The position numbers were made by a program, and so were the translations under genes. Shown here piece after piece: positions 21,859 through 60,112 of a DNA stretch of 64,000 bases (positions are counted from its first letter, which is position 1; each line of letters begins with the position of its first letter). Source of the DNA: Opitutus sp. GAS368 (GTDB lineage: Bacteria; Verrucomicrobiota; Verrucomicrobiia; Opitutales; Opitutaceae); contig CALSBN010000001.1 of assembly GCA_943373185.1 (NCBI GenBank), positions 1,027 to 65,026 on the forward strand. The letters run 5' to 3'. The notes beneath the pieces were generated by a model. It saw only the letters and a list, made by a program, of their open reading frames with translations. It made no database searches and was not told where the DNA came from.

Positions 21859-21935
21859 GGACGCTTAGCTCAGTTGGTTAGAGCACCTGCTTCACACGCA
21901 GGGGGTCGGCGGTTCGAGTCCGTTAGCGTCCACCA
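21859..21935 (+). tRNA. tRNA-Val (anticodon CAC), CCA encoded
   Basis: GGACGCT-TA-GCTC-AGTTGGTTA-GAGC-A-CCTGC-TTCACAC-GCAGG-GGGTC-GGCGG-TTCGAGT-CCGTT-AGCGTCC-A-CCA. 7/7 acceptor pairs and a canonical D/T-loop. Confidence 0.9.
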
Positions 21936-57248: not shown

Positions 57249-57445
57249 GCGGCGGGGCTGATTCTTTGTTTTGGCTTGTTCAAAATCATAGGGCCTTTGG
57301 TCCAAGCCGGACGCGGAACGCGACGCGGGCATCGCGTCGCCGTAGAAGTGAGCCTGAAATGAAAGGCCCTGCGGCGGGGAAGGGTTGACCTGAGCGCTTG
57401 CGTGCGGGCGAACGATGTCCTCTCTTGGCGGAGTTCTTTTTAGCG

Positions 57446-57747
57446 GGGCCTATAGCTCAATGGTTAGAGCAGAGGACTTAATTATCGGGTCGGCGGCGGG
57501 GAAACCCGCCGTTAGTCAGGTGTAACTTCGGTGAACGGCCTGCTCGCTTCGGCGGGCGACCCAACGCCGAGCCAAGCCCGCGCTTCACGGCGCGGTAAGG
57601 TGTAGAGACCATAATCACCCACCTTCGCCCTCAAGGCATGGTGAAGGCATGGTCCAGACTACGAATTCCGCGAAGGCGGGAGCGGCGAAAGCCGAAGTGG
57701 TAAGCATAATCCTTTGGTTCAGGGTTCGAATCCCTGTGGGCCCACCA
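57446..57747 (+). tRNA. tRNA with anticodon CAT (elongator Met or Ile2/lysidine type) interrupted by a group I intron; exons 57446-57478 and 57705-57747
   Basis: Joined exons give GGGCCTA-TA-GCTC-AATGGTTA-GAGC-A-GAGGA-CTCATAA-TCCTT-TGGTT-CAGGG-TTCGAAT-CCCTG-TGGGCCC-A-CCA. This is a 76-nt cloverleaf with all stems paired (G-U pairs at 6-67 in the acceptor stem and at 27-43 in the anticodon stem). G1-C72 is paired and there is no GGG/CCC anticodon stem, so it is not an initiator. Confidence 0.8.
57479..57704 (+). ncRNA. group I intron (IC3-like, Azoarcus tRNA-Ile intron-like core), 226 nt, no ORF
   Basis: Follows U57478 and ends in G57704. GAAA-capped hairpins GGCGGG-GAAA-CCCGCC (57495-57510) and CGGC-GAAA-GCCG (57683-57694). 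Core blocks CAACGCCGAGCCAAGC (57562-57577), AAGGTGTAGAGAC (57597-57609) and CACCCACCT (57616-57624). P1 is possible between exon GACU and intron GGUC (57488-57491). P10 is possible between intron AUUAU (57481-57485) and exon-2 AUAAU (57706-57710). Confidence 0.75.
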
Positions 57748-57839
57748 TTTTCCCAAGCGGGACGGCGCGGGCGTCCCGCTCGGGTTCCAAAAGAACGGGT
57801 GGCGCCCCGGCGCTGCTTTCGATTCACCCGCCGCACTTC

Positions 57840-58400
57840 ATGAACGTTTTTCTTCCGCAGATTTTCATTTCGCCCGGCCATAATTTTTTCGGCCGACAGC
57901 GCGCACCTGCTGGCGATCATCCGACGCACGAGGTGGCGACGGTCAACTGCCGCGCGGGTTGGGGCATCGAAGGGGATCGGTTTTACGGTTATCGTCCCGG
58001 CTACAAAGGACAGATCACGTTTTTCGCCGCGGAAGTGTTTGAGGCTCTGAAAGCGGAGTTTCGATTGCCCGGGATTTCGGCCGGAGTTTTGCGCCGGAAT
58101 GTGCTGATCGGCGGGGCGGATCTGGTGGCGCTGATCGGGAGAAAGTTTTCGATTGGCAGCGTGGCGTTTGAAGGCACGGGCGAGGCGCGGCCCTGCCACT
58201 GGATGAATCACGCGGTAGCGCCGGGTGCCGAAGACTGGCTCAAGGGTCGGGGCGGTCTCCGCGCGCGAGTCCTGAGCGATGGCGAGCTGCAGACCGGCGC
58301 GGCGGAATTGTTATTTTTGGACAAAAGCCCTCAGCCAATCGGCGCCGCCGGCGTCATCGGTGAACGCGCCATCGAGCTGCGCCTCGAAAGCGGCGTCTAG
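57840..58400 (+). CDS. MOSC-domain protein
   Basis: ORF 57714..58400 overlaps the tRNA; ATG 57840 gives MNVFLPQIFISPGHNFFG. GWGIEGDRFYG and GTGEARPCHWMN. The last ~90 nt overlap the convergent cca gene. Confidence 0.7.
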   Translation: MNVFLPQIFISPGHNFFGRQRAPAGDHPTHEVATVNCRAGWGIEGDRFYGYRPGYKGQITFFAAEVFEALKAEFRLPGISAGVLRRNVLIGGADLVALIGRKFSIGSVAFEGTGEARPCHWMNHAVAPGAEDWLKGRGGLRARVLSDGELQTGAAELLFLDKSPQPIGAAGVIGERAIELRLESGV

Positions 58401-59708
58401 GATGCGTTTGAATTCGGGCCCGGGCGCGTGCCCGAGCGCGACCAAATGACGGCCGAGCACCAACGGCTGCGGTGCGAGTCGGGCGAGCGCGAGACCTCGG
58501 GCCTGCGCGGCGAGGGCTTCGATGCGCGCGTCGGTTTCCGGCGACCAAAGTGGTGGGCGGCCGGCGTTGTCGGCGCGCATGACGGCGCATAGATCGTCGA
58601 TCGTGGCAGGTTGGAGCCGGCGGGCCAATCGGCGCACGGCCGAGTCGGAGAGCTTGGGGTTCTGCCGGTCGTGAACGTGGTGGTTCGCCACCAAAGCCCG
58701 CACCGGTGGCGTGAAACGGATCGGGGCACCGATACGTTGGAGAAAACTCTCGGCGACCGGTCCTCCGGCAGCGGCGTGACCGGGACTGAGCCAGCGCATC
58801 ACGCCGTTTTTCTCGGCGCGCGCGGTGGTCGCGGGTTTGCCGAAATCGTGGGCGAGCACCGCCAGCATCAGCACCGGATTGTTGGCGGACGCCGGCCAGT
58901 CGGTGAGCGAGACGAGCCCGTCCAAACACCGTTGCGTATGCGTGAACACATCGCCCTCGGGGTGCCATTCCGGCTCTTGGAGAGTGCCGCGCAGGGCGGC
59001 GACTTCGGGAAAATGTGCGAGCCAGCCAGTCTGTTTGAGCACATCGAGTCCGCGTGACGGGCGAATGGATCGGGTGGCCCATTTTTCCCATTCACCCCAA
59101 ATGCGCTCGACGGGCAACTCGGCGAACGAGGGTGCAATCGACCGCGCGAGTGCCGCCGTTTCGGGGGCCAGATCAAAGTCAAAACGCGCGGCAAACTGGA
59201 ACGCCCGCAAGACGCGCAACGGGTCCTCGGCGAAGGCGGTGCTGGTGTGGCGGAGAATCCGCGCCCGCAAATCGGCGGTGCCGTGGTGCGGGTCGATCAA
59301 TGCACCCGTAAACGGATCGTAGGCGATCGCGTTGATGGTAAAATCGCGGCGCGCGGCGGACTCGGCGTCGGTGAGCGAGGGATCGGGTTCGACCGCGAAG
59401 CCGCGGTGGCCCCGCCCGGTTTTCGATTCACGGCGAGGAAGACTGAAATCGTAGTCGGCGCCGGTGGCGTGACCACGAACCTTGATGACGCCGAAACTGC
59501 GGCCCACGACATCAGTCGCGCCGAAAGGCGCGAGAGCGGTGTGCAACGTTTCGAAATCCACGCCACCGACCTCGACATCGAAGTCATGAGGCGCCTTGCC
59601 CAGAAGCCAATCCCGCACGCCGCCGCCGACCAGCCGCGGCCGGCCGATCCGCCGGGCGGCGTCGAGCAGGGCGCGAAGTTCGTCGGGGATGAAAAGAACG
59701 CCGGTCAT
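58311..59708 (-). CDS. cca: CCA-adding enzyme / tRNA nucleotidyltransferase with HD domain
   Basis: ORF 58311..60092; ATG at comp. 59706-59708 (MTGVLFIPDELRALLD). GGGVRDWLLGKAPHDFDVEV, RRDFTINAIAY, and the HD region LAVLAHDFGKP. Confidence 0.85.
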   Translation of the reverse strand: MTGVLFIPDELRALLDAARRIGRPRLVGGGVRDWLLGKAPHDFDVEVGGVDFETLHTALAPFGATDVVGRSFGVIKVRGHATGADYDFSLPRRESKTGRGHRGFAVEPDPSLTDAESAARRDFTINAIAYDPFTGALIDPHHGTADLRARILRHTSTAFAEDPLRVLRAFQFAARFDFDLAPETAALARSIAPSFAELPVERIWGEWEKWATRSIRPSRGLDVLKQTGWLAHFPEVAALRGTLQEPEWHPEGDVFTHTQRCLDGLVSLTDWPASANNPVLMLAVLAHDFGKPATTARAEKNGVMRWLSPGHAAAGGPVAESFLQRIGAPIRFTPPVRALVANHHVHDRQNPKLSDSAVRRLARRLQPATIDDLCAVMRADNAGRPPLWSPETDARIEALAAQARGLALARLAPQPLVLGRHLVALGHAPGPEFKRILDAAFEAQLDGAFTDDAGGADWLRAFVQK

Positions 59709-60112
59709 TTTGGCGGCGGGGCCTCCGTTTTGAAACCCGCCGCCACCACGCACGCCCATCCGATCATGAATGAAAGTCCGCCCAAAGGTGCCGCCGATGC
59801 GCCCAGCCAACCGGGGGCCGCTTTCAGTGCGAGAAGGTAGAGCGATCCGGAGAACAGGACGATGCCCAGAATCCACCAGCGGGCCGCCCAGCCCAAGCTC
59901 GCGGCGGCGGTGCCGCTGCCGAGGCGGAGCCACGCTGCCGCGGCAAAGATCGCGCTCGTGTGAATCAAATGATACTGCACCCCCGTTTCCCAGCGATCGC
60001 GGGTGCCGAGTTCGGCGAGCCTTGCTTGTAAGGCGTGGGCGCCAAACGCTCCCAAGGCGACCCCGGTGAGACCCAGAATACCGGCGGCCCAAAGCGCATG
60101 TGAAGACTTCAT
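59705..60112 (-). CDS. DUF423-family small membrane protein
   Basis: ORF 59705..60142; ATG at comp. 60110-60112 (MKSSHALWAAGILGLTGVALGAFGAHAL). Four TM helices. Its stop overlaps the cca start (ATGA on the minus strand). Confidence 0.75.
   Translation of the reverse strand: MKSSHALWAAGILGLTGVALGAFGAHALQARLAELGTRDRWETGVQYHLIHTSAIFAAAAWLRLGSGTAAASLGWAARWWILGIVLFSGSLYLLALKAAPGWLGASAAPLGGLSFMIGWACVVAAGFKTEAPPPK

What the first reader, a model, noticed from the sequence alone, without database searches (positions are those of the whole stretch)
57446..57747. Self-splicing-type group I intron interrupting a tRNA(CAU) gene
Two tRNA halves lie 226 nt apart: 57446-57478 (GGGCCTATAGCTCAATGGTTAGAGCAGAGGACT) and 57705-57747 (CATAATCCTTTGGTTCAGGGTTCGAATCCCTGTGGGCCCACCA). 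Joined, they form a complete 76-nt cloverleaf with anticodon loop CUCAUAA and an encoded CCA.

The intervening sequence has these group I features:
- It starts after a U and ends with G, the hallmarks of the group I 5' splice site and omega-G.
- It can form P1 (exon GACU with intron GGUC 57488-57491, giving a U-G wobble at the splice site).
- It can form a 5-bp P10 (57481-57485 with 57706-57710).
- It has two GAAA-tetraloop hairpins (57495-57510 and 57683-57694).
- It contains CAACGCCGAGCCAAGC, AAGGTGTAGAGAC and CACCCACCT. As I recall the sequence, these are identical to core blocks of the Azoarcus tRNA-Ile(CAU) IC3 intron. It also has GGTGTAACTTCGGTGAAC where Azoarcus has GGUGUCAAAUUCGGCGAAAC.
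- It has no ORF, so no homing endonuclease.

Bacterial tRNA group I introns are known from cyanobacteria (tRNA-Leu, tRNA-fMet) and a few proteobacteria (tRNA-Ile, tRNA-Arg). I am not aware of one in this kind of genome. My inferred insertion point (U33|C34, 5' of the anticodon) differs from the Azoarcus site, which is 3' of the CAU anticodon. If this is the only gene for this tRNA species, splicing is essential.
Basis: partly seen in the sequence, partly recalled or inferred. Interest (0 to 1): 0.85.

Follow-up and report, generated by a model that had tools for sequence, protein, structure and literature searches.

The report
Group I intron in tRNA-Ile2 gene
A 226-base group I (self-splicing type) intron splits the CAU-anticodon isoleucine tRNA gene of a Verrucomicrobial (Opitutaceae) genome; it is real and conserved, but this intron position in this tRNA was already catalogued and is common in environmental bacteria.

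Summary
Window 57446-57478 and 57705-57747 join into a perfect 76-nt cloverleaf with anticodon CAU and an encoded CCA. The 226 nt between them (57479-57704) are a subgroup-IC3-type group I intron.

- A covariance model built only from 22 other bacterial tRNA introns hits 57474-57710 end to end (140 bits, E~1e-41) and nothing else in the 64 kb.
- A hand-drawn P1-P9 fold, including the P3/P7 pseudoknot, is 97.4% paired across 45 distinct relatives, with 28 compensatory pairs.
- The two exon halves covary as one tRNA, including pairs that span the intron, so the gene is in use and must be spliced.

The tRNA is tRNA-Ile2 (the lysidine type), not tRNA-Met. The host is an Opitutaceae bacterium.

The novelty claim does not hold. 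Insertion after U33 is the classical cyanobacterial tRNA-fMet site. An "Ile2.2Ug" class is already listed in Williams 2020 (bioRxiv). I found the same split gene in 5 reference Verrucomicrobial genomes and in more than 120 metagenome contigs.

Rfam and default ARAGORN miss it, and I show the Rfam miss is a sensitivity problem. Self-splicing itself is inferred, not shown.

Verdict: a new member of a known kind, of modest interest.

The parts
57446..57478 (+). 5' exon of tRNA-Ile2(CAU), tRNA positions 1-33, ending at U33
   Evidence: ARAGORN on the joined and on the genomic sequence. Exon covariation in 21 distinct relatives.
57479..57704 (+). Group I intron (IC3-like), 226 nt, no ORF, ending in omega-G 57704
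   Evidence: Covariance model R1, 140.4 bits, E~1e-41, full length. nhmmer E=1e-29. Covariation. No internal ORF longer than 24 aa.
57705..57747 (+). 3' exon of tRNA-Ile2(CAU), positions 34-76, starting with anticodon CAU and ending with encoded CCA
57475..57491 (+). P1: exon GACU 57475-57478 pairs with the internal guide GGUC 57488-57491. U57478-G57488 is the splice-site wobble pair. A further U57479-G57487 wobble is possible.
   Evidence: All four pairs are kept in 44-45 of 45 relatives. They do not vary, so this is conservation, not covariation.
57481..57485 (+). Candidate P10 strand AUUAU, complementary to AUAAU 57706-57710 in the 3' exon
   Evidence: Present in the window and its near-identical relatives L192 and L207 only. 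Absent in most relatives, which have the short loop UUCAC.
57492..57513 (+). P2 hairpin, 9 bp, with GAAA tetraloop L2 (57501-57504)
   Evidence: 8 of 9 pairs show compensatory changes.
57519..57522 (+). P3 5' strand GGUG, pairing with CACC 57616-57619 (pseudoknotted with P7)
   Evidence: 4 bp, invariant in the clade. Shorter than Azoarcus GGUGUC/GGCACC, with one nucleotide fewer on each strand.
57528..57570 (+). P4 (57528-57533 with 57565-57570), P5 (57537-57538 with 57560-57561) and P5a hairpin (57542-57547 with 57552-57557, UUCG loop)
   Evidence: P4 and P5 are 100% paired. All 5 counted P5a pairs show compensatory changes.
57571..57601 (+). P6 (GCC 57571-57573 with GGU 57599-57601) and P6a hairpin (57578-57583 with 57590-57595)
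   Evidence: All 6 P6a pairs show compensatory changes.
57605..57611 (+). P7 5' strand G[A]GACCA with bulged A57606, pairing with UGGUCC 57650-57655. G57607:C57654 corresponds to the guanosine-binding pair.
   Evidence: 100% paired in 45 relatives. Across families the helix covaries: GACCA/UGGUC, GAGCA/UGCUC, GACUA/UAGUC, GACUG/CAGUC. The assignment of the G-binding pair is by homology to Azoarcus, from my own knowledge.
57616..57619 (+). P3 3' strand CACC
57620..57643 (+). P8 (CACC 57620-57623 with GGUG 57640-57643) with an internal motif CCUUCG...CAUGG where several relatives have the canonical GAAA-receptor CCUAAG...UAUGG
   Evidence: P8 is 99.4% paired, with 2 covarying pairs. Receptor variants are read from the alignment.
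57650..57655 (+). P7 3' strand UGGUCC
57658..57701 (+). P9 (ACUAC 57658-57662 with GUGGU 57697-57701), enclosing P9a (57666-57671 with 57676-57681) and P9b (57683-57686 with 57691-57694, GAAA loop 57687-57690)
   Evidence: P9 and P9b are 100% paired, and all 5 counted P9a pairs covary. The P9b and P9 3' strand sequences were part of the metagenome search pattern, so their invariance there is by construction.
57704..57704 (+). omega-G, the last intron nucleotide
   Evidence: Present in all 5 relatives that were found through the core 16-mer alone.

Best explanation
Window 57446-57747 is the gene for tRNA-Ile2, the CAU-anticodon isoleucine tRNA whose C34 is converted to lysidine. The host is an Opitutaceae (Verrucomicrobiota) bacterium. 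The gene is split between U33 and C34 by a 226-nt ORF-less group I intron of the bacterial tRNA (IC3) kind.

Inferred mechanism:
1. The precursor is transcribed as one RNA.
2. The intron folds into P1-P9 with the P3/P7 pseudoknot.
3. The exon end GACU pairs with the internal guide GGUC (P1), placing U33 in a U-G wobble.
4. An external guanosine bound at the P7 G:C pair next to the bulged A attacks after U33.
5. omega-G57704 then takes the same site, and the free 3'-OH of U33 attacks after it. This joins U33 to C34 and yields a normal 7-nt anticodon loop CUCAUAA.
6. C34 modification by TilS and RNase P processing then give the mature tRNA.

Shown here: sequence and structure homology to established tRNA group I introns; conservation and covariation of every helix; covariation of the two exon halves as one tRNA.

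Inferred: the chemistry, protein-independence, and the choice of U33 rather than the adjacent U57479 as the splice site.
For: - Exons: ARAGORN calls tRNA(cat) i(34,226), and the joined exons form a perfect cloverleaf.
- Covariance model: model R1 was built only from tRNA-Leu(UAA) and Azoarcus-type tRNA-Ile2 introns, with no site-2 sequences. It matches 57474-57710 over model positions 1-236 at 140.4 bits, E~1e-41. The only other match in the window scores 5 bits.
- Sequence profile: nhmmer gives E=1e-29, and E=2.7e-23 without the 16-mer used for fishing.
- Fold: on 45 distinct same-site relatives the named P1-P9 fold is 97.4% paired, with 28 pairs changed on both sides. 0 of 500 shuffles reach this, and slid controls reach 26-41%.
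- P7 covaries across intron families.
- Exons as one tRNA: the halves are 99.8% paired, with compensatory changes at 4:69, 7:66 and 28:42, all of which join the two halves.
- Isoacceptor: the best E. coli match to the spliced tRNA is the annotated tRNA-Ile with anticodon CAU, 77.6% over the full length. C4:G69, C5:G68 and G27-U43 are shared with it.
- Host: GcvP homologues carry the names Opitutus, Opitutaceae or Verrucomicrobia at 83-86% identity. The five reference genomes with the same split gene are all Verrucomicrobiota.
- Precedent: the Ile2.2Ug, Met.2Ug and fMet.2Ug classes are in Williams 2020.
Against: - No Rfam RF00028 hit, even at E<=10. This is weak evidence: the same model gives only 36.8 bits (below its cut-off of 50) on an Azoarcus-type intron and nothing on tRNA-Leu or other site-2 introns. 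According to Williams 2020 its seed sequences are non-bacterial.
- P3 is only 4 bp (GGUG/CACC) and never varies in the clade, so it has no covariation support.
- The P8 motif in the window (CCUUCG/CAUGG) departs from the canonical GAAA receptor seen in relatives.
- Two consecutive U-G wobbles (U33-G57488 and U57479-G57487) leave the exact 5' cleavage point formally ambiguous.
- No RNA data and no splicing assay are available.
- Much of the relative set was fished with patterns from the intron itself, so some invariance is by construction.
Confidence: 0.9

Rival explanations
1. The intron is a genuine group I descendant but no longer self-splices. It needs a host protein (a chaperone or maturase-like factor), or it splices so poorly that the gene is effectively regulated or crippled.
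For: P3 is reduced to 4 bp, with a nucleotide missing on each strand relative to Azoarcus. The P8 receptor is non-canonical in the window. P10 is not conserved. There is no experimental data.
Against: Every helix and the core junction sequences are conserved, and the variable hairpins covary strongly in 45 relatives. The exons stay under tRNA-type selection. Short P3 helices and absent P10 occur in other bacterial tRNA introns in the Williams seed alignment. No maturase ORF is present.
Confidence: 0.12
2. The two tRNA halves are remnants of a disrupted pseudogene, and a separate intact tRNA-Ile2 gene does the work.
For: Only 64 kb of the genome can be inspected, so another copy elsewhere cannot be excluded. 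Default tRNA finders do not call this gene.
Against: The same split arrangement is kept in 5 reference genomes and more than 120 metagenome contigs. The exon halves show compensatory changes across the intron. The intron helices covary. [quoted passage not shown]
Confidence: 0.03
3. The interrupted gene encodes elongator tRNA-Met rather than tRNA-Ile2.
For: The anticodon is CAU, ARAGORN labels it Met, and a Met.2Ug class exists.
Against: The best E. coli match is tRNA-Ile(CAU) over the full length, and most genomes give only that place. C4:G69 and C5:G68 are shared with E. coli tRNA-Ile2; they are reported TilS determinants (from my own knowledge). G27-U43 is also shared. The exons are near-identical to those of the Azoarcus-type tRNA-Ile2 genes L021 and L061.
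Confidence: 0.05

Closest known systems
Ile2.2Ug / Met.2Ug / fMet.2Ug classes of bacterial tRNA group I introns (Williams 2020, bioRxiv 10.1101/2020.01.27.920355); the fMet.2Ug class is the classical cyanobacterial tRNA-fMet intron
   Same: Same insertion point (after U33, before C34 of a CAU anticodon), U at -1 and omega-G, an ORF-less IC3-type core, and the P9/P9a/P9b(GAAA)...GGUAAG 3' architecture shared with Tpc1.fMet.2Ug and Sba135.Met.2Ug.
   Different: The one Ile2.2Ug seed sequence (Gba28) is AT-rich, with a clearly different P4-P6 and P9 sequence. The window belongs to a GC-rich Opitutales clade. I could not read the preprint's phylum table, which is an image, so I cannot say whether Verrucomicrobia were already counted.
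Azoarcus pre-tRNA-Ile(CAU) IC3 intron (Ile2.5Ug), the structurally and biochemically characterised model
   Same: Same host tRNA species, with near-identical exons. Identical core blocks CAACGCCGAGCCAAGC, AAGGUGUAGAGAC and CACCCACCU. L2 is a GAAA loop in both. Same helix order.
   Different: Azoarcus is inserted after U36, the window after U33. P1 and the guide sequence differ (CAU/GUG against GACU/GGUC). P3 is 6 bp in Azoarcus and 4 bp here. The P9 region is a single short hairpin in Azoarcus but three helices here. Overall intron identity is only 52-55%.
[quoted passage not shown]
   Same: These are the closest non-site-2 relatives by sequence: 56-68% over the whole intron and 78% over a 187-nt blastn match. 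The P9 domain and the 3' end ...GGCGGCGAAAGCCGAAGUGGUAAG are the same.
   Different: A different tRNA, inserted one nucleotide further 3' (after U34). P1 is CUU/GAG. P3 is 7 bp.

Membership tests
Group I intron | Conserved core helices P3-P9 in the canonical order, with the P3/P7 pseudoknot | tested here: met
   Full-length match to covariance model R1. The named structure is 97.4% paired in 45 relatives and P7 is 100% paired. P7 covaries across families.
Group I intron | P1 helix with a U-G wobble at the 5' splice site | tested here: met
   U57478-G57488. The pair is U-G in 45 of 45 relatives. An adjacent second U-G wobble leaves a formal one-nucleotide ambiguity.
Group I intron | omega-G as the last intron nucleotide | tested here: met
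   G57704. Also present in the 5 relatives found independently of this position.
Group I intron | Guanosine-binding G:C pair in P7 next to a bulged nucleotide | tested here: met
   G[A]GACCA/UGGUCC, with A57606 bulged and G57607:C57654 invariant. The function is assigned by homology only.
Group I intron | Guanosine-dependent self-splicing | not testable with these tools
   Needs an in-vitro transcript with GTP and Mg2+, or RNA-seq.
Group I intron | Match to Rfam RF00028 at the gathering score | tested here: not met
   No hit even at E<=10. The model also fails on accepted relatives: 36.8 bits against a cut-off of 50 on an Azoarcus-type intron, and nothing on Leu.3 introns. This is a limit of the model, not a defining biological feature.
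IC3 subgroup (bacterial tRNA introns) | Compact ORF-less intron in a tRNA anticodon loop, with GAAA L2 and L9 tetraloops docking to receptors in P8 and P5 | tested here: inconclusive
   Both GAAA loops are present (57501-57504 and 57687-57690). Some relatives have the canonical CCUAAG/UAUGG receptor in P8, whereas the window has CCUUCG/CAUGG. Docking cannot be tested here.
tRNA-Ile2 (lysidine tRNA) | CAU anticodon with an Ile2-type rather than Met or fMet body | tested here: met
   The best E. coli match is the annotated tRNA-Ile with CAU. The G1:C72 pair and the GAGGA anticodon stem argue against an initiator. C4:G69, C5:G68 and G27-U43 are shared with E. coli tRNA-Ile2.
tRNA-Ile2 (lysidine tRNA) | C34 converted to lysidine by TilS; isoleucine charging | not testable with these tools
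   Needs mass spectrometry. No tilS search of the genome was possible because only 64 kb are available.

The most novel reading that the evidence does not exclude
In Opitutaceae the split gene may be the only tRNA-Ile2 gene. Ribozyme splicing would then be obligatory for decoding AUA. Because the intron sits immediately 5' of C34, splicing would also gate lysidine formation. In addition, the clade-wide leader motif GUUCUUUGGA just upstream of the tRNA (window 57433-57442) might be a co-transcriptional element that controls folding or splicing of the precursor, for example by transient pairing with the anticodon-stem strand GAGGA.
Probability: 0.15. Interest if true: 0.5.

Novelty: new member of a known kind. 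Interest (0 to 1): 0.3.

Why it matters
Practically, standard annotation misses this gene. [quoted passage not shown] Genomes of this clade will therefore appear to lack tRNA-Ile2, and intron-mode ARAGORN can mislabel relatives as tRNA-Glu or tRNA-Ser.

Biologically, it adds a well-populated Verrucomicrobial clade to the bacterial tRNA introns. Its many natural variants could be useful for ribozyme structure and function work alongside Azoarcus. Together with the Burkholderiales-like loci noted in passing, it shows that the same tRNA can carry related introns at two different anticodon-loop sites.

It does not change what is known about how such introns work.

Tried and rejected
- Rfam at gathering and E-value thresholds gave no RF00028 hit. 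I rejected this as evidence of absence after showing that the model under-scores accepted relatives.
- Default ARAGORN misses the gene. Intron mode is needed.
- Exact-protein look-ups to name the organism: two failed. One found only unnamed Logan contigs. Taxonomy came instead from GcvP homologue names and from the relatives.
- Synteny with relatives: none at the DNA or protein level.
- P10 as a conserved feature: rejected. It is present only in the window, L192 and L207.
- Sigma-70 promoter and intrinsic terminator scan around the gene: nothing useful.
- Leader-trailer pairing as the explanation for the conserved GTTCTTTGGA leader motif: only about 15 of 48 loci have 7 or more complementary bases, so it is not general.
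- MFE folding alone (z = -2.99) does not recover the group I fold, as expected for a pseudoknotted ribozyme.
- The 1994 and 1997 papers on the tRNA-fMet intron are not held in the library. The site assignment therefore rests on the nomenclature and seed alignment of Williams 2020.
- A shifted-splice-site reading giving anticodon UAU or UAA was considered and rejected. It would need an intron ending in C or A, and the tRNA has a short variable arm, so it is not a tRNA-Leu.

Full report
**1. The observation**

The sequence is as described.
- 57446-57478 (GGGCCTATAGCTCAATGGTTAGAGCAGAGGACT) and 57705-57747 (CATAATCC...GGGCCCACCA) lie 226 nt apart.
- Joined, they give a 76-nt tRNA that ARAGORN calls tRNA(cat). 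On the genomic DNA in intron mode it calls tRNA(cat) i(34,226).
- Default ARAGORN finds only a tRNA-Val at 21859.
- Rfam finds nothing here, either at gathering scores or at E<=10 on the 600-nt region.

Shifting the boundaries by one nucleotide either way destroys either U33 or the terminal G. The short variable arm rules out a tRNA-Leu reading. The only boundary pair that gives U(-1), omega-G and a 7-nt loop is therefore 57478|57479 and 57704|57705.

**2. Is it a group I intron?**

I scanned one genome per species for the core block CAACGCCGAGCCAAGC.
- About 65 loci carry the GUAGAGA block downstream and sit inside tRNA genes.
- Most are tRNA-Leu(UAA) genes split after nt 34. Several are Azoarcus-type tRNA(CAU) genes split after nt 36. 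Single cases are Arg, Lys and Asn.

From 22 of these, none with the window's insertion site, I built two independent tests:
- A sequence profile. nhmmer hits the window once, at 57475-57706, with E=1e-29. With the fishing 16-mer deleted from both sides it still gives E=2.7e-23.
- A covariance model. It matches 57474-57710 over its full length with 140.4 bits, E~1e-41. The next match in the 64 kb scores 5 bits.

The Rfam miss is a sensitivity problem. RF00028 gives 36.8 bits (cut-off 50) on an Azoarcus-type intron and nothing on a tRNA-Leu intron or on two site-2 relatives. Williams 2020 notes that none of its seed sequences is bacterial.

**3. Anatomy**

By homology and direct pairing (coordinates):

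| Element | Coordinates | Notes |
|---|---|---|
| P1 | 57475-57478 / 57488-57491 | U33-G wobble |
| P2 | 57492-57513 | L2 is GAAA |
| P3 | 57519-57522 / 57616-57619 | 4 bp |
| P4 | 57528-57533 / 57565-57570 | |
| P5 + P5a | 57537-57561 | |
| P6 + P6a | 57571-57601 | |
| P7 | 57605-57611 / 57650-57655 | A57606 bulged |
| P8 | 57620-57643 | |
| P9 + P9a + P9b | 57658-57701 | L9b is GAAA |
| omega-G | 57704 | |

There is no ORF of any size inside the intron.

**4. Relatives and covariation**

Five reference genomes carry the same split gene at the same site, all Verrucomicrobiota:
- L037, Opitutia
- L039, Opitutus sp. GAS368
- L044, Opitutaceae D2-102
- L047, Verrucomicrobiota
- L049, Opitutaceae LF-bin-497 (87% identical to the window)

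ARAGORN miscalls two of them as tRNA-Glu and tRNA-Ser.

It yielded 90 distinct introns.

On 45 distinct introns of the window's type (alignment A3), my named structure behaves as follows:
- 97.4% of cells are paired.
- 28 pairs have changes on both sides.
- 0 of 500 shuffles reach the observed values.
- Slid controls reach only 26-41%.
- P2, P5a, P6a and P9a covary heavily.
- P1, P3, P4, P5 and P9b are conserved rather than covarying.

Caveats: the structure was derived from one of the sequences, and P9b, the P9 3' strand and omega-G were part of the search pattern.

P7 covaries between intron families (GACCA/UGGUC, GAGCA/UGCUC, GACUA/UAGUC, GACUG/CAGUC).

**5. The gene is in use**

Twenty-one distinct spliced tRNAs from this clade are 99.8% paired in the cloverleaf. 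They show compensatory changes at 4:69, 7:66 and 28:42, pairs whose partners lie on opposite sides of the intron, as well as in the T stem. This is hard to reconcile with a pseudogene and implies accurate splicing in vivo.

**6. Which tRNA, which organism**

- The spliced sequence best matches the E. coli gene annotated tRNA-Ile whose anticodon is CAU: 77.6% over all 76 nt, and usually the only place matched per genome.
- It shares C4:G69, C5:G68 and G27-U43 with that gene, and it lacks initiator features.
- Its exons are nearly those of Azoarcus-type tRNA-Ile2 genes. It is tRNA-Ile2.
- The window's GcvP has homologues named Opitutus sp., Opitutaceae bacterium and Verrucomicrobia bacterium at 83-86% identity, and unnamed ones at 96%. 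Together with the relatives, this places the window in Opitutaceae.

**7. Mechanism**

Inferred from the established group I pathway (my own knowledge of the family):
- An exogenous guanosine, bound at the P7 G57607:C57654 pair, cleaves after U33.
- omega-G57704 then replaces it, and U33 is ligated to C34.
- TilS can act on C34 only after ligation.

Open points:
- P3 is short (4 bp) and has one nucleotide fewer on each strand than in Azoarcus.
- The P8 receptor is non-canonical in the window.
- P10 is not conserved.
- A second U-G wobble (U57479-G57487) lies next to the splice-site wobble.

**8. Comparison with what is known**

- Williams 2020 maps 5292 group-I-split bacterial tRNA genes into 21 site classes.
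- The classical four are Leu.3Ug, Arg.5Ug, fMet.2Ug and Ile2.5Ug.
- The seed alignment contains Gba28.Ile2.2Ug and Sba135.Met.2Ug. Insertion after U33, including in tRNA-Ile2, is therefore already catalogued.
- The tRNAscan-SE 2.0 paper reports that apparently missing fMet or Ile2 genes in 36 genomes are due to group I introns.
- I found no paper in the library that describes such introns in Verrucomicrobia.
- By sequence the window's intron is nearer to proteobacterial tRNA-Leu introns (56-68%) than to Azoarcus-type introns (52-55%).

**9. Verdict**

This is a real, conserved and almost certainly functional IC3-type group I intron in the tRNA-Ile2 gene of an Opitutaceae genome. It is a new member of a known and already catalogued kind. 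Its main value is for annotation and as a source of natural ribozyme variants. Self-splicing remains to be shown.

Noticed in passing
window 57433-57442 (GTTCTTTTTA); equivalent positions in L037, L039, L044, L047 and about 40 metagenome loci: A motif GTTCTTTGGA lies 4-12 nt upstream of the mature 5' end of the split tRNA-Ile2 in nearly all Opitutales-type loci. It is absent upstream of the window's tRNA-Val. Leader-trailer complementarity explains only about 15 of 48 loci; in the window it is 57433-57440 with 57789-57796. The function is unknown. It could be a conserved leader or start region, or an element that pairs with the anticodon-stem strand GAGGA.
   Followed up: partly
L067 and L073 versus L131, L147, L150, L182, L216: An identical 77-nt mature tRNA-Ile2 is split after nt 36 by an Azoarcus-type intron in L067 (an uncultured-bacterium MAG) and L073 (a Rubrivivax MAG). 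In five metagenome contigs it is split after U33 by a site-2 intron. So the same tRNA has been colonised at two different sites.
   Followed up: partly
L123, L126, L131, L137 and similar loci (alignment A2 columns 10-65): A second lineage of site-2 tRNA-Ile2 introns carries an extra hairpin of about 45 nt inserted in the P1 loop, containing CCUAAAC...GCAUGG (like a tetraloop receptor). P3 and P8 are different and shorter. A further set of site-2 introns is 289 nt long.
   Followed up: no
L037:5382-5608 and L047:4075-4340: ARAGORN in intron mode places the boundaries 3 nt off and calls these site-2 tRNA-Ile2 genes tRNA-Glu(ttc) and tRNA-Ser(tga). This is an annotation pitfall.
   Followed up: yes
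window 57610-57616 and 57705-57711: The heptamer CAUAAUC occurs both inside the intron (P7 3' end, J7/3, start of P3) and at the start of the 3' exon. The intron copy (UAAUCACC) is invariant in 45 relatives. It may be coincidence or an exon mimic. Not tested.
   Followed up: no
window 57757-57779: A GC-rich hairpin (GCGGGACG ... CGUCCCGC) lies 10 nt after the encoded CCA with no T-run. It was not called a terminator. It could be a 3' processing or termination structure. L192 and L207 keep a similar one.
   Followed up: no
window 58311-60092 (- strand): An ORF with poly(A) polymerase / CCA-adding enzyme head and RNA-binding domains lies about 560 nt downstream of the tRNA gene on the opposite strand. 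The tRNA already encodes its CCA. This is probably coincidental.
   Followed up: no
loci L001-L120: [quoted passage not shown] Bacterial tRNA introns are far more widespread than the 'cyanobacteria and a few proteobacteria' picture given in reviews.
   Followed up: partly
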